NCBI GenBank assembly: GCA_051294375.1
Contig: JBJCIZ010000861.1
Span: 1 to 26,109 of the forward strand
Source of the DNA: Paraspadella gotoi
Lineage: Eukaryota; Animalia; Chaetognatha
DNA length: 26,109 bases
Direction of reading: 5' to 3'
Position numbers and translations under genes: made by a program. This document shows positions 247-26,109 of this stretch, piece by piece. Numbering within the stretch: position 1 is the stretch's first letter; each line of letters begins with the position of its first letter. The notes beneath the pieces are model-generated. The model was given only the letters and a program-made list of their open reading frames with translations. It was not told where the DNA came from and made no database searches.

Positions 247-260
247 GACTTAAAGAATAG

Positions 261-323
261 CTCCCCGGCGGGGTATCGAACCGCGGTCTCTCGCGTGACA
301 GGCGAGGATACTCACCACTATAC
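261..323 (-). tRNA. tRNA-Asp(GTC), 5' ~9 nt lost in the gap
   Basis: Minus strand reads GTATAGTGGTGAGTATCCTCGCCT-GTC-ACGCGAGAGACCGCGGTTCGATACCCCGCCGGGGAG. This follows the eukaryotic tRNA-Asp pattern (anticodon stem CTCGC/GCGAG, GTTCGA T-loop, G discriminator, no encoded CCA). The T-stem has one C.C mismatch. Confidence 0.93.
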
Positions 324-610: not shown

Positions 611-646
611 TACAGTCCTCCGCTCTACCAACTGAGCTATCAAGGG
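611..646 (-). tRNA. tRNA-Tyr(GTA), 5' half only (rest in gap)
   Basis: Minus strand reads CCCTTGA-TA-GCTC-AGTTGGTA-GAGC-G-GAGGA-CT-GTA: acceptor 5' strand, intact D-arm/A-box, and anticodon GTA at 611-613, matching the eukaryotic tRNA-Tyr 5' exon pattern. Confidence 0.88.
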
Positions 647-1004
647 AGATTTTTTTAATTGCAAGTTCGATTGGATTGCTCCCATGTTTTTCTTCCTAAA
701 TGTAGAATTCTCATTAATTCTTACGCTAGAATAAAAAAATTAGCTAAAGAATGCATTACCACTTATAAAAGAAATTTTTGCAGGTATCTCAACTTCAAAA
801 TATTCATCCTTCCTCATGAATATTTTTTTAAGTTTTTATTTTAGATGTGATTATTCATTTTAAATCATTCTAACATTAAAAAAGCATGAGAAAATAATAA
901 AAAATAGAAAAGAAAAAACTTAGAGAAACTGTAGGAGAGAGAGAGAAAAAGAGTCTGAGCAGTATTTCGCACCCTAGACCCGCGACGATCGCCCGTCGGT
1001 AGAG

Positions 1005-13301: not shown

Positions 13302-13472
13302 AAAGAGCGAGAGTGAGAGCTTACGTCTTCTCAACTTGAGACCATAAGCGTTTTTCCCCTCTCCTTTTTTTCTGGGATTGCTTCTGCCTGAGCCTCAATA
13401 GTTACTTTTATGAAGGAGCATAAAAAAAGAGGAAAAGATAAAAGACGCCGGGATGAAAAGAGGAAGGGAGTA

Positions 13473-13527
<55 letters not shown>

Positions 13528-13624
13528 GAAAGAGGAGAGAGAATGCCAACAACGTGGAATCGTGAAACTTCAGCAAAATTCCCACTCACAAGAACAATGG
13601 GGAGAACAGAGAGAGAGAGAGAAA

Positions 13625-13660
<36 letters not shown>

Positions 13661-13743
13661 CAATGGCGATAGAACCGTCGGCCACGAGAAAGATAAAAAT
13701 GAAAGTAATTTTCTTTCCACGATGGTAACTGCGTCGGTCGGGG

Positions 13744-13799
<56 letters not shown>

Positions 13800-13896
13800 T
13801 TCTTTCTCCTCCCTACCATTCTTCTTTTCTCATTCCCTTCCATAAACCCAGGGCGAGTCGTCCTCGCTCGTGCAAAAATGAAGTGCGGTTTTCGAG

Positions 13897-14047
13897 TCTC
13901 AAAAGTCATTATGGTTTTTTTAAACTCAAAATTCTTTCTGTCAAAAATTGTTTGTCAAAATTAGGATCAGTCAAAATTCTGTCTTTCAAAAGATTGTCAG
14001 TCAAATTCTGTCAAAAAAATCTGATTTTCGAAACGTTGTCAAAAAAC
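13897..14047 (+). repeat. Dispersed array of (G/C/T)TCAAAA motifs, duplicated in A' at ~20117-20266
   Basis: About nine GTCAAAA/CTCAAAA-type units at irregular 10-28 bp spacing, several extended to GTCAAAATTC. Confidence 0.7.
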
Positions 14048-14590
14048 AGGACCGTTAATTCCAATGTGTTGCGTCGCAATGACATATTTTCATGTGTATT
14101 TCCATTTGATCACATGATATGACATGACATGACATGATTAAAAAACTTTATTTATGTCATGCGCTGCGTCAAAATTTTAGGTTTTTTTCTGTCTTAACCA
14201 ATATGAGAATTCAACTATAGGACACCGACCGAAAAGTGACTTATAGAGTTTCTCCGCGAGTACTGGCGGCGCAACTAAAACAAACAAAAAAATACTATCA
14301 TTAAAATCAAAGAAAAAATAAAAAATCAATGACAAATTTGGCAAATTAAGTCCCACCGCATTTAACGAGTCGAAAATGAACGTGTTGACGATATGGAAAA
14401 AGTCAGTTCAGTCAGAAAGTGCTGAAGCCTAACGCTTCTGCCACATCCATGTCAAAGGAAAAAAGATCCAGCCTGTCACCCTCGCTCACACCTCGGCTCG
14501 TCAGCCACGTGCTGGAAGACGTTACCGTCACATCCTGAAAAGGGGAGCAAAATAAGTAATTCGATCTTTTTCCATTTCAACGGAACTATG

Positions 14591-14623
14591 GAGATGGAAC
14601 CGAGATGGAACCGAGATGGAACC
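14591..14623 (+). repeat. (GAGATGGAACC)3 tandem repeat, duplicated in A'
   Basis: Three exact 11-bp units. Confidence 0.9.
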
Positions 14624-16368
14624 GCCATGATAATGGTGGGACTAACGAGCGGCGGCTCAACCGCGATTCTCGATCAGGATCAAAGCGAAGGTAGTCACGA
14701 AAAGTTATGATAATGGCCGGGCGTCCAATCGGCGGCGGTGGGTGGCGGATTGACGAGTGGAGTGTCGGCCGAAGTGGTTGATGGTTTTGGGAAGGTGGGA
14801 ATAGGGAAAGAATGACCAGACTGGAAATACCGAGACCGTGGACACTTTGTGGTCTAGGATGTGGGAAAAGGGGCGGAAGGAGTTAAAACAAATATTGTTA
14901 ATGTGAAAAAAAAACCGTTAATAAACGTCGCGATTAGAGAAAGTCCTATCAAAGAGTGAATGAGGAGATGAGTCTGAGACTCTGATGCGCTAAGAGGTAA
15001 GCATATGGAGTCGTAGCGCGGAGTGGTAGGTAGCAAATGGAGTCTCCGAGAGACGCCGAACGAGGATTGGCGAAATTTGTGAGATGAAAAGAAAGAATGA
15101 AAAGGTTGAGAAAAAGGAAATATGGAAGGGAAAGAAAATGAGAATAGGGAGGAGTAAAGGAATGGATGGATGAATAGAAATTAAGGAAAAGAAGGAAGAA
15201 GAAAAAAGAGGAGAAGAGAAAAGGAAGATGATCAATGGAAATGAATGAAAAGAGAAAAGATGGAAAAAGAGAATAAAAAATCAATAAAAACCTAAAATCT
15301 CATTGCGACTTAAATAATTGTTTTCTTTCTAATTTTACGATCTTTAATGAACACACATAACAATTTATACCGACTTCTCTTAATTTCTGACCTGTTCCGC
15401 CTAAGTGACTATCGTCGACGGAGGCTTGAATTTTTCATAAATGACCAATAGTTGACCTTACATAATTTCCATTACATCCGGGTTCTACTCGACACTTGCT
15501 CTCCGATTCCCTCTCGATTTCCGGCGGCATGACTCCCCGCCCTTTGAGTCTCTCGACCTTAAAATAATCTATCATGACCATAGATTATGGTATTAAAATA
15601 TTTTTTTTTCAAAAAGCTTTCTTCTGAGGGTACTCGCCTAATTAAAAATATTATATTACTATATAGTATAACGTTGAATATTTTCTTAAAATTTTTTGAT
15701 AGAGCATAAAAAGTTAAACAAGAAATATAATTACAGCTTTTAAAAATTCTTACGTTTTCTTACGTTTGAGCTTGTACTCACTCTAAATTTTTGACTCACC
15801 CCATTTGAGTGCGGCTACCCCTATTCTTATCGCGAGAAGAGTCATCGGCAATTTCCAAAACCATTTGTCTCGATTTTTCTTTGCTTCTTTCCTTCCTCTT
15901 CTCTGCAGCCTCCACGAACGAGACGGGTCCGAACGAAGAAGAAAAGAGCAAAAAAGAACAACAACAACAATGAAAAAGATGGGAATGAGCCAACAATGAC
16001 AAACAAGCCGACAACATGGATGCCCCAATAGTAATCGACCAGCCTACTCAGTCGTCCTCAAAGAGATGCTGAAGAGACAAAAGAAGTTCAACGACAACAA
16101 CAACATTGAAATAATAAAACCCCCTGTTGACCTAATTGACAGTTGGAGCTTCTTCTCCCGGCATCCTCGCTCTTCCTCCCGTCTCCGTGCTCCAACTGTC
16201 AATTGTACACTTATTATATTTATATTATACAGTATTTTATTTATTTTTGGTATTTTTCAAATTTGTGTAATTTTGGTATTTTTGCATGTTTAAAACCGGT
16301 TTTTTTATTTTAGTAGCATTACTATATTATTTATCAACATTCTGTTCAATCACACCATATATTATAAC

Positions 16369-16552
16369 AGGGGGGCATGGAGCCGCTCGAGTGAATCAAA
16401 TCTATTACAGAAATAATTCCTCCACTTATGGGATTCGAACATCGAACTCAAGCTCTGGACGACCTGAGTTACAACTCAGAGCCATCCAGACGGCCCTGAT
16501 TCCTCAGAGAATCTAAACCTATTTAAAATTTAAAACCAAAGACATCTTTTGG
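16369..16552 (+). mobile_element. Polypurine tract (16369-16375) and putative 3' LTR starting TG at 16378, paralogue 2
   Basis: AGGGGGG-CA-TG downstream of the pol tail. No partner LTR is visible, so the right boundary is uncertain. Confidence 0.5.
16385..16502 (-). ncRNA. Conserved structured element, paralogue 2 (unassigned family)
   Basis: Helices TCTGGATGGC/GTCGTCCAGA, GAGTT/AACTC, GCTTGAGT/ACTCGAGC and TTCGA/TCGAA co-vary with paralogue 1. Confidence 0.55.
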
Positions 16553-16577
16553 TGAACAGAGCAACTGTTTTAAGAAA

Positions 16578-16765
16578 AACAAAAGATTTCTAAATCGAGA
16601 TTTAAAGCTTTAAATGAAAACAAAATTGCTGAGAAATCAGGGCCGTCTGAGTGGCCCAGAGCTGTAGCTCGAGTCACTCAGAACTTGAGTTTGACGGTTC
16701 AAATCCAACCATGGATGATTATTTTTATAAAAGATCTGATTCGCTCAAGTGGCCGCATGCCCCCT
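16578..16765 (-). mobile_element. Polypurine tract (16760-16765) and putative 3' LTR starting TG at 16757, main element
   Basis: Minus strand ACAGGGGG-CA-TGCGGCC follows the pol 3' UTR. Confidence 0.5.
16635..16750 (+). ncRNA. Conserved structured element, paralogue 1 (unassigned family), with B-box-like GGTTCAAATCC at 16696-16706
   Basis: Helices TCTGAGTGGC/GTCACTCAGA, GAGCT/AGCTC, ACTTGAGT/GCTCAAGT, TTTGA/TCAAA, TCCA/TGGA and AATCAG/CTGATT. Confidence 0.55.
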
Positions 16766-16977
16766 GTTGTAATATATGGTTAAATATATTAAAAACAAAA
16801 ATGTTGTCGTCCATCTTGTGTGACTGAAAGTATGTTGATAATAAATATATAGTAATATATAAAGACCGGTTTAAAATGTGCAACGAAAAATAAAATTTCA
16901 CAAAATCTAAAATTGAAAAATTTCCAAAATAACAACAACAAAAATTTTACAAAATACAAAAAACACTATGGGTAACG

Positions 16978-19157
16978 ATGTAATATTGACAGTCGGAGCG
17001 AGGAGACGGGAGGAAGACCGAGGATGCTGGGACGAAGATGCTCTGACTGTCGATGAGGTCGACAGGGGGTTTTATTTTTGTTTTCTCGTCGTTGTTGTTG
17101 TAGTCATTCTGTATTTTTTGACGTCGAAGCATCTCCTTGAAGAACGACAAGTGTGGTTGATTCGTGATTGGCATCCTGCTAGAAAAGTTCTCTGGCGTTG
17201 GTTTTGAGAATCTTTTGATCGTTTGTTCGTTTTTTCCTTTTTCGTTGTTGTTGTTGTTGTGATTCTCTCTTCTCGCTCTTCTGGGAATTGACTCGTCTCG
17301 CGTGGAGGCTGAGCAGAGAGGGAGGGAGAAAAACGTAAAGGGGAGGAGAGTGGGTCGGGGGAAGGTGGGTGGTTGGAGTGAGAGGGGAAGGAGGAGGAGG
17401 AGGAGGAACCGGTTCGGGCGACGCTGCGCGTTGAATATTTGAACGAGTTGTCCGAGTTGTTTCTGCCGGCGTCCTCGTTCGTAGGCCGGGCTGGCGGCCT
17501 GCTGGGCGTCGCTGAGGATGTCCCTGATCAACCTCCAACGTCCTCGTCGGAAACCCACGCTGGTTTGACGTGGGCGATGTTTAGCGTTTCGTGGCCTTTA
17601 CTTGGGATTTTGATGGTGACATTAAGGCCGTTGCGAATCACTACATATAAGTGGAGGTTAACGCCTGCTCGCCTGACAAAAACATGTGAGCGGTGTCGGG
17701 AGATGGATAACGGGTTTTTGCATGAGCGGATGTCACCGTCGACTGGAGGTGTGCCACTTTGACTCTAAGATTCGAAAGTTGTTGTTGTTGTTGTAAGCTG
17801 CGTTGTCGAGTGAAAGTCATTGAAGATGCATCCGGGGACGCTAATGCCTTCCCCAAAGACCATGTCCGCCGCTGATGCGCCGATGTCTTCTTTTATCGTT
17901 GTTCTTATCGCTAGAAGAGTCATCGCAATTTCCAAAACCATTTGTCTCGATTTTTCTTTGCTAAGGCGATGAGCGATTCTTTGAGTTGCCTTGTGAAAGC
18001 TGATGCTTTATGATGCTTTATCCCCATTGTTTCATGATCAGTTGTCTCCACAAAGCAGAGTTGAATTGTGTTCCCCTGTCTGTAGTGATTACAGACGGGG
18101 TACGAATACATTATCCACTCGAGGCTCAAAAGCGTCTAAGATCGTTGAAGTGAGGTGTTGGGAATTGGTGGCAGCCGGCCATCTTAAGAAACAGTGGCAA
18201 TGTTCTTTTGCCCTCTGGCAATCTAGACAGTCCCTGTCCCCACTTTGAAACATCTTGACGCATGTTAATCCAAAAAATTTCCAGATTTTGCGCGGTCCAC
18301 GCCTGGGTGCCCTAATCCATGTATAACGTTGAATATTTTTCTTCGCCATGACGCCGGTACGAATAGACGGGCAGGTTCATTTGAAGGTCTGACCTTGCTT
18401 CTTCCGCGATTCTCTGGTAATCTGGGTCGAAGAACTTGTTTTGAGCCATTTGCTCGAAATTGGTTTCGAAACTAGTTAGCGATGCAATTACCGCCTGAGT
18501 GTCTTCGAGTCGATTTAGTTTTTATCAATTTTTCTTTCGAGTTTTCCAGATTTTTTGAATTCGCGTTTTCCATCGAGTCGTACTCCATTGCCGATGTAAA
18601 TTCTTTCTTTCCGCGTTGTCAGTGACGTTGTCGTCGTCATCGTCATCTGAGGTGTCATCATTGATATTGACGCTGCTGTAGCTGCCGCTGGCGCCACTGC
18701 TGCTGTTAGTGATGCTATTGCTACTGCTTTGCATCATTATCGACGTCACCGACGATGCTGGTGTTTGATGACGTTATTGACGGTTTCGTTGGCCGCCGAA
18801 TTTGACGTTGAGTTTTGGCGCAAGAGGGCGTGGCCACACGTTCGCTTACTTTTTTAAATAATGCACGTCAGCGATCACTGAGAGCTGATACGACTGACGA
18901 ACGGTCTGAGACTCTGCTTTCTTTTCGAATCGCCGTCACAAGAGTAAATGATCTACCCTTCAACCCAGTGCCTGAATTGGCGGACAGCTTTGAAGGCGCC
19001 GAAAAGTTCTTTATCGAACGGAGGCCATAAGCGTTGGTTTTTTGGCGAGCTTGGCCAAGAAAAGGCCAGAGGCTCCCATCCTTTGGCCTCTCTGCTCCAG
19101 CACTGCTCCAACGGCCAAATCTGAGGAAGTCCATTGTGATGCAACGTTTTGCTCCGG
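16978..19157 (-). pseudogene. pol: Ty3/Gypsy retrotransposon pol remnant (RNase H-like + integrase), copy in B
   Basis: Frameshifted segments GWEPLAF, QRLWPPFDKELFGAFKAVRQFRHWVEG, RLFVPASWRRKIFNVIHGLGHPGV, DRDCLDCQRAK, ITTDRGTQF and RQLKESLIALAKKNRDKWFWKL. Confidence 0.92.
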
Positions 19158-19540
19158 TTCTAGTAGGGAACCACTATGGTTTAATTTTTAAATATGGGGT
19201 ATCAGCAAAAATATTTTAGATGTTTTGACGGTTATATTTAACCATTAATTTTTTTAAAAAATTACGTAATACGTATGTGATTAGTACATCGAAAAATGGT
19301 TTGTCTCAGCCGAAAAAATTACACGTACAAAAGTGCTCTTCCTTCTCCTATAGAAAAAGAAATGTCTTTTTCCTCACTCTTTTATATAGAAATAAAAAGC
19401 TTAAATTATATCAATCAAATTGATATAAAAAAAGTTATTACTGTTAGTGGATATTCGCTGCTTAACTTTACAATCACATTGTAGGTGCTTGGTCGGTCCT
19501 GTCTGTTTGTCTGTCCCACTTATATTTTAAATACGAAAAC

Positions 19541-19565: not shown

Positions 19566-19684
19566 CCCCCTCTCCTTTTTTCTGGGGGATTGCTTCTGCC
19601 TGAGCCTCAATAGTTACTTTATGAAGGAGCATAAAAAAAGAGGAAAAGATAAAAGACGCCGGGGATGAAAAGAGGAAGGGAGTA

Positions 19685-19723
<39 letters not shown>

Positions 19724-19824
19724 AGAGGAAAGAGAGAGAGAATGCCAACAACGTGGAATCGTGAAACTTCAGCAAAATTCCCACTCACAAGAAACAATGG
19801 GGAGAACAGAGAGAGAGAGAGAAA

Positions 19825-19860
<36 letters not shown>

Positions 19861-19942
19861 CAATGGCGATAGAACCGTCGGCCACGAGAAAGATAAAAAT
19901 GAAAGTAATTTTCTTTCCACGATGGTAACTGCGTCGTCGGGG

Positions 19943-20023
<81 letters not shown>

Positions 20024-21953
20024 CTCCCTCCCTACCATTCTTTCTTTCTCATTCCCTTCCCATAAACCCAGGGCGAGTCGTCCTCGCTCGTGCAAAAATG
20101 AAGTGCGGTTTTCGAGTCTCAAAGTCATTATGGTTTTTAAACTCAAAATTCTTTCTGTCAAAAAATTGTTTGTCAAAATTAGGATCAGTCAAAATTCTGT
20201 CTTTCAAAAGATTGTCAGTCAAATTCTGTCAAAAAATCTGATTTTCGAAACGTTTGTCAAAAAACAGGACCGTTAATTCCAATGTGTTGCGTCGCAATGA
20301 CTATATTTTCATGTGTATTTCCATTTGATCACATGATATGACATGACATGACATGATTAAAAAACTTTATTTATGTCATGCGCTGCGTCAAAATTTTAGG
20401 TTTTTTCTGTCTTAACAAATGAGAATTCAACTATAGGACCGACCGAAAAGTGACTTATAGAGTTTCTCCGCGAGTACTGGCGGCGCAACTAAAAACAAAC
20501 AAAAAAATACTATCATTTAAAAATCAAAGAAAAATAAAAAAAATCAATGACAAATTTGGCAAATTTAAGTCCCACCGCATTTAACGAGTCGAAAATGAAC
20601 GTGTTGACGATATGGAAAAAGTCAGTTCAGTCAGAAAGTGCTGAAGCCCTAACGCTTCTGCCACATCCATGGTCAAAGGAAAAAAGATCCAGCCTGTCAC
20701 CCTCGATCACACCTCGGCTCGTCAGCCACGTGCTGGAAGACGTTACCGTCACATCCTGAAAAGGGGAGCAAAAATAAGTAATTCGATCTTTTTCCATTTC
20801 AACGGAACTATGGAGATGGAACCGAGATGGAACCGAGATGGAACCGCCATGATAATGGTGGGACTAACGAGCGGCGGCTCAACCCGCGATTCTCGAGGAT
20901 CAAAGCGAAGGTAGTCACGAAAAGTTATGATAATGGCCGGGCGTCCAATCGGCGGCGGTGGGTGGCGGGATTGGACGAGTGGAGTGTCGGCCGAAGTGGT
21001 TGATGGTTTTGGGAAGGTGGGAATAGGGAAAGAATGACCAGACTGGAAATACCGAGACCGTGGACACTTTGTGGTCTAGGATGTGGGAAAAGGGGCGGAA
21101 GGAGTTAAAACAAATATTGTTAATGTGAAAAAAAACCGTTAATAAACGTCGCGATTAGAGAAAGTCTATCAAAGAGTGAATGAGGAGATGAGTCTGAGAC
21201 TCTGATGCGCTAAGAGGTAAGCATATGGAGTCGTAGCGGAGTGGTAAGGTAGCAAATGGAGTCTCCGAGAGACGCCGAACGAGGATGGCGAAATTTGTGA
21301 GATGAAAAGAAAGATGAAAGGTTGAGAAAAAGGAAATATGGAAGGGAAGAGAAAATGAGAATAGGGAGGAGTAAAGGAATGGATGGATGAATAGAAATTA
21401 AGGAAAAGAAGGAAGAAGAAAAAAAGAGGAGAAGAGAAAAGGAGATGATCAATGGAAATGAATGAAAAGAGAAAAGATGGAAAAAGGAGAATAAAAAATC
21501 AATAAAAACCTAAAATCTCATTGGCGACTTAAATAATGTTTTCTTTCTAATTTTACGATCTTTAATGAACACATTAACAATATTTATACCGGACTTCTCT
21601 TAATTTCTGACCTGTTCCGCCTAAGTGACTATCGTCGACGGAGGCTTGAATTTTCAATAATGACCAATAGTTGACCTTACATAATTTCCATTACATCCGG
21701 GTTCTACTCGACACTTGCTCTCCGATTCCCTCTCGATTTCCGGCGCATGACTCCCCCGCCCTTTGAGTCTCTCGACCTTAAAATAATCTATCATGACCAT
21801 AGATTATGGTATTAAAATATTTTTTTTCAAAAATGCTTTCTTCTGAGGGTACTCGCCTAATTAAAAATATTATATTACTATATAGTATAACGTTGAATAT
21901 TTTTCTTAAAATTTTTTGATAGAGCATAAAAAGTTAAACAAGAAATATAATTA
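19566..21953 (+). repeat. Block A', copy 2 of the direct duplication
   Basis: Matches 13356-15733 and diverges from it after AGAAATATAATTA. Confidence 0.97.
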
Positions 21954-22679
21954 AGAGAGAGATTTTGACCCGCCTCAATTTAAAAGAGATGTTTCGATCG
22001 CTATTTAGTTTTTCTGGTTAAAATCTTACAAATACTGTTTTGCCAAGAAAAGAAAATATTTGCTGTACAGAGAAAAGTCTTATATTTTTATTATCGACAT
22101 TTTCTCTAGAAAACAGTTCGACAGGTGAACCACGAACGCCACAAACACTTTTTTACATACGACTATTCTATAAAACATATGCACCACAACCATCTTATGG
22201 TTAATCATTTATAAAGTATAACTATGTATTAGATAATTTATATCACGTTTGACCTTTTGATTAAAGGACCTAATTGTATAGTATCTAAAAAGTTTTGGTT
22301 TTCGTATTTAAAATATAAGTGGGACAGACAAACAGACAGACCGACCAAGGCAACCTCAATGTGATTGTAAAGTTAAGCAGCGAATATCCACTAAGCAAGT
22401 AATAAACTTTTTTATATCAATTTGATTGATATAATTTAAGCTTTTTTATTTTCTATATAAAAGAGTGAGGAAAAAGACATTCTTTTCTATAGGAGAAAGG
22501 AAGAGCAACTTTTGTACGTGTAATTTTATTCGGCTGAGACAACCATTTTTCGATGTACTAATCACAACGTATTACGTAATTTTTTAAAAAAATTAATGGT
22601 TAAATATACGTCAAAACTCTAAAATATTGCTGATAACCCCATATTTAAAAATTAAAACCATAGTGGTTCCCTACTAGAA

Positions 22680-24868
22680 CCGGAGCAAAACGTTGCATCA
22701 CAATGGATTCCTCAGATTTGGCCGTTGGAGCAGTGCTGGAGCAGAGAGGCCCAAAAGGATGGGAGCCTCTGGCCTTTTTCTTGGCCAAGCTCGCCAAAAA
22801 ACAACGCTTATGGCCTCCGTTCGATAAAGAACTTTTCGGCGCCTTCAAAGCTGTCCGCCAATTCAGGCACTGGGTTGAAGGTAGATCATTTACCTTGTGA
22901 CGGCGATTCGAAAGAAAGCAGAGTCTCAGACCGTTCGTCAGTCGTATCAGCTCTCAGTGATCGCTGACGTGCATTAATTTAAAAAGTAAGGCGAACGTTG
23001 TGGCCGACGCCCTCTTGCGGCCAAACTCAACGTCAAATTCGGCGCCAACGAAACCGTCAATAACGTCATCAAACACCAGATCGTCGATGACGTCGATAAT
23101 GATGAACAGCAGTAGCAATAGCATCACTAACAGCAGCAGTGGCGCCAGCGGCAGCTACAGCAGCGTCAATATCAATGATGACACCTCAGATGACGATGAC
23201 GACGACAACGTCACTGGACAACGGGAAAGAAAGAGAATTTACATCGGCAATGGAGTACGACTCGATGGAAAACGCGAATTCAAAAAATCTGGAAAACTCG
23301 AAAGAAAAATTGATAAAACTAAATCGACTCGAAGACACTCAGGCGGTAATTGCATCGCTAACTAGTTTCGAAACCAATTTCGAGCAAATGGCTCAAGAAC
23401 AAGTTCTCGACCCAGATTACCAGAGAATCGCGGAAGAAGCAAGGTCAGACCTTCAAATGAACCTGCCGTCTATTCGTACCGGGCGTCATGGCGAAGAAAA
23501 ATATTCAACGTTATACATGGATTAGGGCACCAGGCGTGGACGCGCAAGAAAAGCCGTCTCCGCAAAATTTGTTTGGAATAACATGCGTCAAGATGTTTCA
23601 AAGTGGGACAGGGACTGTCTAGATTGCCAGAGGGCAAAAGTAACATGCCACTGTTTCTTAAGATGGCCGGCTGCCATCCAATTCCAACACCCTCACTTCA
23701 ACGATCTTAGACGCTTTTGAGCCTCGAGGGATAAGTGTATTCGATACCCCGTCTGTAATCACTACAGACAGGGGAACACAATTCAACTCTGCTTTGTGGA
23801 GACAACTGATGAAACAATGGGGATAAAGCATCATAAAGCATCAGCTTTCACAGGCAACTCAAAGAATCGCTCATCGCCTTAGCAAAGAAAAAATCGAGAC
23901 AAATGGTTTTGGAAATTGCCGATGACTCTTCTAGCGATAAGAACAACGATAAAAGAAGACATCGGCGCATCAGCGGCGGGACATGGTCTTTGGGGAAGGC
24001 ATTAGCGTCCCCGATGCATCTTCAATGACTTTCACTCGACAACGCAGCCTTACAACAACAACAACAACTTTCGAATCTTAGAGTCAAAGTGGCACACACC
24101 CAGCCGACGGTGACATCCGCTCATCAAAAACCCGTTATCCATCTCCCGACACCGCTCAACATGTTTTTGTCAGGCGAGCAGGCGTTAACCCTCCACTTAT
24201 ATGTAGTGATTGCAACGGCCTTAATGTCACCATCAAAATCCCAAGTAAAGGCCACGAAACGCTAAACATCGCCCACGTCAAACCAGCGTGGGTTTCCGAC
24301 GAGACGTTGGAGGTTGATCAGGGACATCCTCAGCGACGCCCAGCAGGCGCCAGCCCGCCTACGAACGAGGACGCCGGCAGAAACAACTCGGACAACTCGT
24401 TCAATATATTCAACGCGCAGCGTCGCCCGAACCGGTTCCTCCTCCTCCTCCTCCTTCCCCCTCTCACTCCCAACCACCCACCTTCCCCCCGACCCACTCT
24501 CCTCCCCTTTACGTTTTTCCTCTCCTCCTCTCTGCTCAGCCTCCACGCGAGACGAGTCAATTCCCAGAAGCGAGAAGAGAGAATCAACAACAACAACAAC
24601 AACGAAAAAGGAAAAAAACGAACAAACGATCAAAAGATTCTCAAAACCAACGCCAGAGAACTTTTCTAGCAGGATGCCAATCACGAATCACCACACTTTG
24701 TCGTTCTCAAGGAGATGCTTCGACGTCAAAAAATACAGAATGACTACAACAACAACGACGAAGAACAAAAATAAAATCCCCCTGTCGACCTCATCGACAG
24801 TCAGAGCATCTTCGTCCCAGCATCCTCGGTCTTCCTCCCGTCTCCTCGCTCCGACTGTCAATATTACA
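22680..24868 (+). pseudogene. pol: Ty3/Gypsy retrotransposon pol remnant (RNase H-like + integrase), copy in B'
   Basis: RNase H-like DSSDLAVGAVLEQ..WEPLAFF..DKELFGAFKAVRQFRHWVEGRSF (22703-22895) and KANVVADALLR (~22988-23020). Zinc finger HGLGH..W..CLDC (~23516-23627), core TTDRGTQFNSALW (from 23761), then KLPMTLLAIRTTIKEDIGASAA, HVFVRR and ETLNIAHVKPAW. The RH-then-INT order fits Ty3/Gypsy. No gag, protease or RT is present, and there are many frameshifts. Confidence 0.93.
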
Positions 24869-25094
24869 TCGTTACCCATAGTGTTTTTGTATTTTGTAAA
24901 ATTTTTGTTGTTGTTATTTTGGAAATTTTTCAATTTTAGATTTTGTGAAATTTTATTTTTCGTTGCACATTTTAAACCGGTCTTTATATATTACTATATA
25001 TTTATTATCAACATACTTTCAGTCACACAAGATGGACGACAACATTTTTGTTTAATATATTTAACCATATATTACAACAGGGGGGCATGCGGCC

Positions 25095-25211
25095 ACTTGA
25101 GCGAATCAGATCTTTTATAAAAATAATTCATCCATGGTTGGATTTGAACCGTCAAACTCAAGTTCTGAGTGACTCGAGCTACAGCTCTGGGCCACTCAGA
25201 CGGCCCTGATT
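25095..25211 (-). ncRNA. Structured element, paralogue 1, duplicate copy in B'
   Basis: Reverse complement of 16635-16750. It follows PPT 25079-25085 and TG at 25088. Confidence 0.55.
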
Positions 25212-25293
25212 TCTCAGCAATTTTGTTTTCATTTAAAGCTTTAAATCTCGATTTAGAAATCTTTTGTTTTTCTTAAAACAGTTGCTCTGTTCA

Positions 25294-25958
25294 CCAAAAG
25301 ATGTCTTTGGTTTTTAAAGTTTTAAATAGGTTTAGATTCTCTGAGGAATCAGGGCCGTCTGGATGGCTCTGGATTGTAACTCAGGTCGTCCAGAGCTTGA
25401 GTTCGATGGTTCGAATCCCATAAGTGGAGGAATTATTTCTGTAATAGATTTGATTCACTCGAGCGGCTCCATGCCCCCCGTTATAATATATGGTGTGATT
25501 GAACAGAATGTTGATAAATAATATAGTAATGCTACTAAAATAAAAAAACCGGTTTTAAACATGCAAAAATACCAAAATTACACAAATTTGAAAAATACCA
25601 AAATAAATAAAAAACTGTATAATATAATATAAAATAAGTGTACAATTGACAGTTGGAGCACGGAGACGGGAGGAAGACCGGAGGATGCCGGAGAAGAAGC
25701 TCCAACTGTCAATTAGGTCAACAGGGGGTTTTATTATTTCAATGTTGTTGTTGTCGTTGAACTTCTTTTGTCTCTTCAGCATCTCTTTGAGGACGACTGA
25801 GTAGGCTGGTCGATTACTATTGGGCATCCATGTTGTCGGCTTGTTTGTCATTGTTGGCTCATTCCCATCTTTTTCATTGTTGTTGTTGTTCTTTTTGCTC
25901 TTTTCTTCTTCGTTCGGACCCGTCTTGCGTGGAGGCTGCAGAGAAGAGGAAGGAAAGA
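25294..25958 (-). mobile_element. 3' fragment of the second Gypsy-family element, duplicate copy in B'
   Basis: Reverse complement of 15886-16552. ORF 25555-26034 covers its pol tail. Confidence 0.75.
25346..25464 (+). ncRNA. Structured element, paralogue 2, duplicate copy in B', with B-box-like GGTTCGAATCC
   Basis: Reverse complement of 16385-16502 with small differences that are probably read errors. Confidence 0.55.
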
Positions 25959-26109
25959 AGCAAAGAAAAATCGAGACAAATGGTTTTGGAAATTGCCGAT
26001 GACTCTTCTCGCGATAAAATAGGGGTAGCCGCACTCAAATGGGGTGAGTCAAAAATTTAGAGTGAGTACAAGCTCAAACGTAAGAAAACGTAAGAATTTT
26101 TAAAAGCTG

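What the first reader, a model, noticed from the sequence alone, without database searches (positions are those of the whole stretch)
16385..16750. Co-varying multi-helix RNA/ssDNA module at the start of both putative Gypsy LTRs, folding on the antisense strand
SEEN: paralogue 1 (16635-16750, +) and paralogue 2 (16385-16502, -) keep the same helices despite diverging in sequence. H1 is TCTGAGTGGC/GTCACTCAGA vs TCTGGATGGC/GTCGTCCAGA (two double changes plus one wobble). The inner H1 is GAGCT/AGCTC vs GAGTT/AACTC (one double change). Long-range P2 is ACTTGAGT/GCTCAAGT vs GCTTGAGT/ACTCGAGC (one double change, two wobble swaps). P3 is TTTGA-CGGT-TCAAA vs TTCGA-TGGT-TCGAA (one double change; loop read from the B' copy, the B copy has one G fewer). 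That makes five compensatory pairs in ~116 nt. Two crossing pairings are also retained in both: AATCAG with (C/T)TGATT, and GCCG with the P3 loop YGGT, so a pseudoknot is possible. The non-Watson-Crick pairs are G-U on the strand antisense to pol and would be A.C on the sense strand. KNOWN: LTRs can carry functional RNA domains (hammerheads in retrozymes, 5S-derived sequence in Cassandra elements). This module lacks the hammerhead CUGANGA/GAAA core and the HDV P3-L3 UCCUCG segment, and its arms are not in tRNA order. INFERENCE: a selected, possibly undescribed structured element, either an antisense ncRNA/ribozyme or a fold of the minus-strand cDNA next to the PPT.
Basis: partly seen in the sequence, partly recalled or inferred. 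Interest (0 to 1): 0.8.

Follow-up and report, generated by a model that had tools for sequence, protein, structure and literature searches.

The report
Backwards tRNA-type gene inside Gypsy LTRs
The folded stretch is real and overlaps a tRNA-type promoter that lies backwards in the end-repeats of two related jumping genes and recurs in ten related elements, so it likely makes a small folded antisense RNA, although its transcription and function are untested.

Summary
The helices and all five double changes are there, and the shared fold is specific to the strand antisense to pol: joint fold -45.2 kcal/mol against a null of -25.7 +/- 3.9 (0 of 1500 reach it), and -25.0 on the other strand. Only two independent sequences carry it. 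Ten of 12 informative related Gypsy loci carry such an antisense cassette (one degenerate), and a profile built from them alone finds all four window copies. Here the terminator is mostly the weak TTTCT, so read-through would supply the long-range helices. No ribozyme family matches; the two crossing pairings show no double change. The two LTR starts face tail to tail in a junction with roughly 20-50 times the contig depth of the flank. Closest known: Helenus TRIMs (sense, non-coding) and foamy-virus LTR Pol III RNAs. This scan has noted similar antisense cassettes in other genomes. Verdict: new variant of a known kind; expression untested.

The parts
16629..16757 (+). Module A: folded antisense cassette in the first 129 nt of putative LTR A (GNRA hairpin 16629-16640; P0 16641-16644/16751-16754; H1 16646-16682; P2 16683-16690/16743-16750; P3 16691-16702)
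16652..16661 (+). A-box-like motif of module A (TGGCCCAGAG)
16696..16706 (+). B-box of module A (GGTTCAAATCC)
16722..16726 (+). T-run 25 nt behind G53 of the B-box: T5 in this copy, TTTCT in most short-read contigs (16725 T>C)
16756..16767 (-). Polypurine-tract-like run and TG that starts putative LTR A
   Evidence: same junction in L004, L007, L013, L014, L016
16378..16507 (-). Module B: paralogous folded cassette; A-box-like 16484-16475, B-box 16440-16431, TTTCT 16413-16409
16367..16379 (+). Polypurine-tract-like run and TG that starts putative LTR B
16508..16628 (.). AT-rich spacer between the two divergent cassettes, with a TTTAAA..TTTAAAT box upstream of each (16601-16615 +, 16534-16521 -). 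A common form carries 34 more bases at 16535/16539 that hold a short palindrome twice (candidate LTR ends or PBS-like site)
16950..19187 (-). 5'-truncated, frameshifted Ty3/Gypsy pol of element A (RNase H, integrase zinc finger, integrase core, low-complexity tail)
   Evidence: Pfam on the duplicate copy; tblastn; ORFs
15886..16366 (+). Inverted remnant of paralogue B: probable pol tail and 3' untranslated region; a frequent variant skips 16020-16360
22298..26109 (+). 96%-identical inverted duplicate of 15734-19540, holding A' (25088-25217, -) and B' (25341-25471, +); likely an assembly duplicate
   Evidence: artefact status is inference

Best explanation
The module is a tRNA-type promoter cassette lying antisense in the LTR start of two Ty3/Gypsy paralogues, and it is likely transcribed by RNA polymerase III into a small folded antisense RNA. 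Shown: the A-box, B-box and T-run register, the same cassette on the antisense strand of related Gypsy elements, and a fold that is conserved on that strand only. Inferred: TFIIIC binds the boxes, TFIIIB the AT-rich spacer, and Pol III starts near 16631-16636 (A) and 16500-16505 (B). Relatives would stop at a T4-T6 run and give an RNA of about 95 nt. In this lineage the run is mostly TTTCT, a poor terminator in human Pol III, so part of the transcripts would read through to the LTR edge, where the 3' arms of P2 and P0 lie, and on past the purine tract (next T4 at 16295 for B and 16945 for A: about 210 and 310 nt). The fold would lock up most of the LTR-complementary sequence and leave a tail complementary to the purine tract and 3' end of the element's RNA. 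Most likely role (weakest step): a self-regulating antisense RNA of the element.
For: Register: the T-run starts exactly 25 nt behind G53 in 9 of 10 cassettes from 9 related loci and in module A. A-box to B-box span is 53-54 nt in 7 of 16 loci and 55 nt in module A. B and L014 share the same atypical A-box 10-mer. Independent test: a sequence-only profile built from the relatives finds all 4 module copies on the antisense strand at E 0.00065-0.012; its only better hit is a host tRNA gene fragment at 250-302, and the next hit is at E 0.6. It also finds an untrained degenerate cassette in L002 (E 0.003). All 10 trained cassettes are antisense. Strand of the fold: consensus -45.2 vs -25.0 kcal/mol; 4 of 4 one-sided A/B changes in the named helices give G-U on this strand; a GNRA loop is kept while its variable base changes. 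T3CT is a weak terminator with read-through in human Pol III (PMC3141230, passages). LTR-borne Pol III RNA genes have precedent in foamy viruses (PMC3993851, passages).
Against: No transcript was observed. Covariation rests on two sequences and five doubles (32 of 1500 under the most permissive null). The fold is not shared by the relatives, whose consensus keeps only 5 pairs near the B-box with no double change. The profile hits cover the A-box only for B, so most of the signal is the B-box plus T-run. The A-box lacks the downstream YGG that Helenus boxes keep. P0 and P2 need read-through, and this copy of A has an intact T5. One inner-H1 position is C.A in A on the antisense strand. By contig name 12 of 16 loci come from one sample and the clear cassettes from two samples.
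Confidence: 0.55

Rival explanations
1. The promoter is what is selected, as a TFIIIC/TFIIIB-bound insulator or as a landing pad for Pol III-targeting integrases; the RNA is a by-product and its fold only keeps leaked antisense RNA from pairing with the element's RNA.
For: Across relatives only the boxes and the terminator position are kept, not a fold. A fixed early terminator would limit antisense read-through. The two LTR starts meet just upstream of each other's cassette. Tj1 inserts within 12 bp upstream of tRNA genes (PMC4600332, abstract). Earlier notes report pile-ups at LTR-borne Pol III promoters (unchecked).
Against: The junction lies roughly 50-100 bp from the predicted starts, further than Tj1's window. 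Short-read contigs show one junction form with variants, not a spread of sites (contigs drop rare forms). It does not explain why the terminator weakened where the fold is strongest.
Confidence: 0.2
2. The fold acts in the minus-strand cDNA, or in the sense RNA, during reverse transcription next to the polypurine tract; the Pol III boxes are a separate inherited feature.
For: Double changes work on either strand and in DNA. DNA folding is also strong (z -4.5 and -3.5). A second hairpin in the pol tail likewise has its mismatches as G-T on the minus strand, and in A it lies beyond the first T4.
Against: G-U pairs and a GNRA loop are RNA-type features (established knowledge). The strand advantage for A is small with DNA parameters (-24.1 vs -22.9). 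The fold begins within a few bases of the predicted Pol III start, which this reading does not explain.
Confidence: 0.11
3. A passenger: an old tRNA or SINE head was captured once, and the apparent compensation comes from arm-to-arm template switching in quasi-palindromes, without selection.
For: Conservation is not raised over the neighbouring region. The two adjacent H1 doubles could be one event. The shuffles do not model template switching. Earlier notes read similar cassettes in other genomes as passengers (unchecked).
Against: Boxes and exact terminator spacing persist while the sequence between them diverges freely across elements 63-90% identical in integrase. Template switching predicts no strand bias, but the joint fold exists on one strand only. 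P2 and P0 pair bases 60-110 nt apart. A frequent deletion in B removes the pol tail but stops 6 nt before the purine tract and module.
Confidence: 0.1
4. An undescribed self-cleaving ribozyme with a double pseudoknot, as in retrozymes.
For: Compact multi-helix fold; crossing pairings are sequence-compatible. Other repeats of this genome are noted to join tRNA-like heads to twister folds (unchecked).
Against: No ribozyme among 8 Rfam matches at E <= 10 in 16340-16800 or among 38 window-wide at E <= 1. The crossing pairs have no double change and compete with nested helices favoured in both paralogues. No look-alike among the scan's other windows.
Confidence: 0.04

Closest known systems
Helenus / TRIMp3 (Kojima 2024, PMC10886601; text parts 1-4 of 6 read, passages, supplement term search)
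   Same: tRNA-derived A and B boxes inside an LTR; not a working tRNA; no complementarity to a PBS; animal members are linked to Gypsy.
   Different: Helenus is non-coding and about 0.3-1.3 kb, and its boxes are sense: 44 sense and 0 antisense occurrences of the two B-box forms searched in the supplement. Here the boxes are antisense, sit in pol-bearing elements, keep a terminator position and overlap a covarying fold.
Foamy-virus LTR Pol III small-RNA genes (PMC3993851, passages)
   Same: A-box/B-box/terminator units inside a retroelement LTR that give short structured RNAs.
   Different: Those are shown miRNA precursors of a retrovirus. Here no processing is shown, the fold is a multi-branch structure, and the unit is antisense to pol (foamy-virus orientation not checked).
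CsRn1 clade of Ty3/Gypsy (PMC2582038, passages)
   Same: RNase H then integrase order, TG(T) LTR start behind a purine tract; a related PBS-like motif occurs in 7 of 16 loci.
   Different: Gag, PBS and TSD cannot be seen. The passages read mention no Pol III cassette.
Cassandra TRIM (as described in PMC10886601)
   Same: Pol III promoter and terminator kept inside an LTR.
   Different: 5S-derived, drives the element's own sense transcript, non-coding element of plants.

Membership tests
tRNA-type (type 2) Pol III unit | B-box GGTTCRANNCC | tested here: met
   16696-16706 and B' exact; B has one G fewer in this copy but not in contigs
tRNA-type (type 2) Pol III unit | A-box about 30-60 nt upstream | tested here: inconclusive
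   TGGCY at tRNA spacing in both paralogues, shared with relatives; the downstream YGG is missing
tRNA-type (type 2) Pol III unit | T-run terminator behind the B-box | tested here: inconclusive
   T5 at +25 in this copy of A; weak TTTCT in B and most contigs of A; T4-T6 in 9 of 10 relatives' cassettes
tRNA-type (type 2) Pol III unit | Transcribed by Pol III | not testable with these tools
   only contigs available
Functional tRNA gene | Cloverleaf with acceptor stem | tested here: not met
   ARAGORN 0 in the module and 0 of 16 loci at default; calls appear only at lowered thresholds with inconsistent anticodons
Helenus (TRIMp3) | tRNA-like sequence in the LTR | tested here: met
Helenus (TRIMp3) | Short non-coding element with two LTRs, PBS and PPT | tested here: not met
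   LTR A follows RNase H and integrase sequence; no second LTR in the window
Helenus (TRIMp3) | Boxes in the sense of the element | tested here: not met
   antisense here; 44 sense and 0 antisense in the Helenus supplement
Ty3/Gypsy | RNase H before integrase in pol; PPT then TG LTR start | tested here: met
   PF17919/PF17917, PF17921, PF00665 (below its cut-off, E 9e-5) in that order
CsRn1 clade | CHCC Gag motif, tRNA-Trp PBS, 4-bp TSD | not testable with these tools
   5' part absent from the window and from the loci; no genome held
Known self-cleaving ribozymes (hammerhead, HDV-like, twister, others in Rfam) | Match to the family model | tested here: not met
Self-encoded primer RNA | 3' end complementary to the element's PBS | tested here: inconclusive
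   by reading, the cassette's tRNA-3'-end region has no complement in the spacer; the true PBS is not seen

The most novel reading that the evidence does not exclude
A clade of protein-coding Gypsy retrotransposons carries its own antisense Pol III small-RNA gene, and in this lineage a weakened terminator let it grow into a new multi-helix RNA with a role in the element's cycle; two such genes, back to back, travel as the core of a multi-copy composite element with fused LTR ends.
Probability: 0.3. Interest if true: 0.75.

Novelty: new variant of a known kind. Interest (0 to 1): 0.5.

Why it matters
tRNA-derived promoters in LTRs are described for small non-coding elements, where they drive the element's own sense RNA. 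An antisense unit with a fixed terminator in coding Gypsy elements cannot do that, so it needs another purpose: self-regulation, insulation or target-site signalling. This pair adds sequence evidence that the RNA's structure is selected, and it gives exact predictions (start, two RNA lengths, fold) that one small-RNA library and one in vitro transcription can test. My seven literature searches (open-access PMC and bioRxiv only) found no description of this arrangement; Repbase entries and subscription papers were not searchable.

Tried and rejected
Rfam: only long-hairpin miRNA models far below their cut-offs, explained by the A/B palindrome; 4 chance-level hits in 11 loci. A separate small gene behind pol: no homologue; probably the pol tail, but the support is weak (E 0.03 among 510 segments; E 0.4). 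More copies of the module: 0 in viral contigs, 0 in prokaryote genomes, 0 look-alikes in the scan; relatives by protein 0 in viral contigs and 0 in prokaryote genomes. No genome is held for this window, so the copies could not be collected and no many-sequence covariation test was possible. Expression: no RNA holder listed; run X8 is only guessed to be RNA and was not used as evidence. Ancestral tRNA type: a degenerate pattern, shaped partly by my recall of initiator tRNA, found nothing, so the donor is unknown. The PBS-like motif of 7 loci is absent from the window even at 3 mismatches. The shuffle control is post hoc, because the pattern was written after seeing the window; it matched A and A' only. 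A self-encoded primer as recalled for C. elegans Cer7 could not be verified. No tree was built, because the window's in-frame pieces are too short; one capture versus several is undecided.

Full report
Setting. The window is repeat-rich eukaryotic DNA with N gaps. The stretch 15734-19540 recurs inverted at 22298-26109 and 13356-15733 recurs directly at 19567-21953, both at 96% around a 25-N gap; I take this as one locus assembled twice (inference), so there are two independent modules, A and B. They lie in an imperfect palindrome, 15879-17332 at 65%. Unit A is the 3' end of a broken Ty3/Gypsy pol on the minus strand: RNase H, integrase zinc finger and core in that order, 62-70% identical to 14 database proteins. 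Unit B is an inverted paralogue of A's last 700 bp. Each unit runs into a purine tract followed by TG, the junction also seen in 5 related loci, so each module fills the first 130 nt of a putative LTR and folds on the strand opposite its own pol.

A and B each fold on their own into the same core. Five pairs change on both sides and 4 more on one side, all 4 to G-U on the antisense strand. With the structure fixed from one paralogue, 1.4-1.6 doubles are expected and P(>=5) is 0.004-0.008. Letting each shuffled pair choose its own structure, 32 of 1500 reach five doubles (19 of 1500 with the boxes frozen) and none reaches the joint energy of -45.2 kcal/mol; the opposite strand gives -25.0, equal to the null. 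These nulls do not model template switching between arms. Both use the bases of the proposed crossing pairings, which show no double change, so the pseudoknot is unsupported. No ribozyme family matches.

What it is. The 3' arm of P3 is a tRNA B-box, with a TGGCY motif 44 nt upstream and a T-run 25 nt downstream. A scan of metagenome contigs with the integrase C-terminus returned 16 related loci. Four end at or before the pol stop; of the other 12, nine carry a clear antisense cassette, L002 a degenerate one, and L010 and L016 none in the 800 and about 500 bases available. In 9 of 10 cassettes T4-T6 starts exactly 25 nt behind G53, while the sequence between the boxes varies freely. The cassette sits at the pol stop in most loci and inside the putative LTR in L013 and L014. 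A profile built from the relatives alone finds the four window copies on the expected strand (E 0.00065-0.012), outranked only by a host tRNA fragment; the next hit is at E 0.6. Limits: 12 of the 16 contigs share one sample prefix, clear cassettes come from two samples, and the profile covers the A-box only for B. The relatives do not share the window's fold: the promoter is clade-wide, the fold belongs to the A/B lineage.

Terminator and fold fit together. In B, and in most short-read contigs of A, the run at +25 reads TTTCT. T3CT is a poor terminator that allows read-through in human Pol III (PMC3141230, passages); its behaviour in this host is unknown. The 3' arms of P2 and P0 lie 17-28 nt beyond the end of that run and end at the LTR edge, so the full fold exists only in a read-through RNA or in minus-strand DNA. 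A transcript ending at the run still folds (z -3.8 and -3.3) but differently in A and B.

The junction is repeated. Single short-read contigs bridge both modules in three runs from two studies (X5 301 nt, X9 592 nt, X8 775 nt). Their depth is 590, 1058 and 63 against 15.8, 20.1 and 2.7 for contigs on the flank at 14593-15018, a ratio of 37, 53 and 23; pol A is 420-560 in X5 and 470-1030 in X9. The tool warns that contig depth is no copy number, so this says only 'tens of copies, roughly'. The common form in X5 and X9 has 34 more bases in the spacer that hold a short palindrome twice, two bases apart; it matches each LTR start at 6 of 8 positions by reading. That fits two LTR ends fused tail to tail, or one LTR end followed by a PBS-like site and an inverted piece of B; collapsed contigs cannot tell these apart. 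A frequent variant deletes B's pol tail but keeps its purine tract and module. The module substitutions listed fall in loops, at the LTR start, or keep a G-U pair (4 of 4 listed; 11 rows of that table were not shown).

Mechanism. Most likely (0.55) Pol III transcribes each cassette outward from the shared spacer into a folded antisense RNA that regulates the element; transcription, read-through and role are inferred. Rivals: promoter occupancy as insulator or landing pad (0.2), a fold of minus-strand DNA (0.11), a passenger with homogenised hairpins (0.1), a new ribozyme (0.04).

Comparison. It works like a tRNA-type Pol III unit but is not a tRNA. It resembles Helenus in carrying tRNA boxes in an LTR (PMC10886601; parts 1-4 of 6 read) but fails two defining features: it is in pol-bearing elements and it is antisense, whereas the Helenus supplement holds 44 sense and 0 antisense occurrences of the B-box forms searched. 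Foamy viruses give the precedent for LTR-borne Pol III RNAs (PMC3993851, passages; listing). Assignment to the CsRn1 clade is a recalled lead that could not be tested (PMC2582038, passages). Seven searches found no paper on antisense tRNA-type cassettes in coding Gypsy elements (listings only; open-access library, bioRxiv supplements closed). Earlier notes of this scan report similar antisense cassettes in fungal and protist Gypsy elements, several read as passengers, and gave me the Helenus paper; notes on this genome describe tRNA-plus-twister mini-elements, which prompted the ribozyme check. They are unchecked and are not counted as support.

Verdict. Observation confirmed; interpretation partly supported. 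A real, strand-specific conserved fold on an antisense tRNA-type Pol III cassette of a Gypsy clade: a new variant of a known kind, interest 0.5.

Noticed in passing
window 250-323 (-) and 611-650 (-): Host tRNA genes cut by the N gap: the 3' part of a tRNA with a GTC anticodon (Rfam tRNA 25.4 bits; top hit of the cassette profile) and, by reading, the 5' half of another tRNA.
   Followed up: partly
window 16983-17054 and 16133-16206: A second hairpin of about 15 bp in the probable pol tail of both paralogues; perfect in B, two mismatches in A that are G-U on the antisense strand, one double change by reading.
   Followed up: partly
L001 1306, L004 2176, L005 1309, L006 1287, L007 1352, L008 1300, L009 1556 (+): A 15-nt motif conserved in 7 of 16 loci just upstream of the antisense cassette. 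It resembles the CsRn1-clade PBS of PMC2582038 but lies behind pol; it could be a 3' primer-binding part or an upstream promoter element.
   Followed up: partly
L013 2666-2760 and 3260-3355 (-); L014 2310-2404 (-): L013 has two cassettes, one at the pol stop and one inside the putative LTR; the LTR-borne cassettes of L013 and L014 hold a CTGCAG loop, Cys-anticodon-like by recall.
   Followed up: no
window 15824-15885: A 62-bp copy of integrase sequence (97% to 17902-17962) is joined to the end of the B remnant, next to a repeat of very high contig depth at about 15700-15820; a local rearrangement.
   Followed up: no
window 13356-15733/19567-21953 and 15734-19540/22298-26109: Direct and inverted 96% duplications around a 25-N gap with indel-rich differences; likely the same locus assembled twice.
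   Followed up: partly
window 16378-16757: A Pol II read-through across both modules would fold back as one long imperfect duplex (-157 and -177 kcal/mol), a possible siRNA source.
   Followed up: no
L016 about 2004-2100: The LTR-like sequence runs into TAACCC-type telomere-like repeats at the contig end.
   Followed up: no
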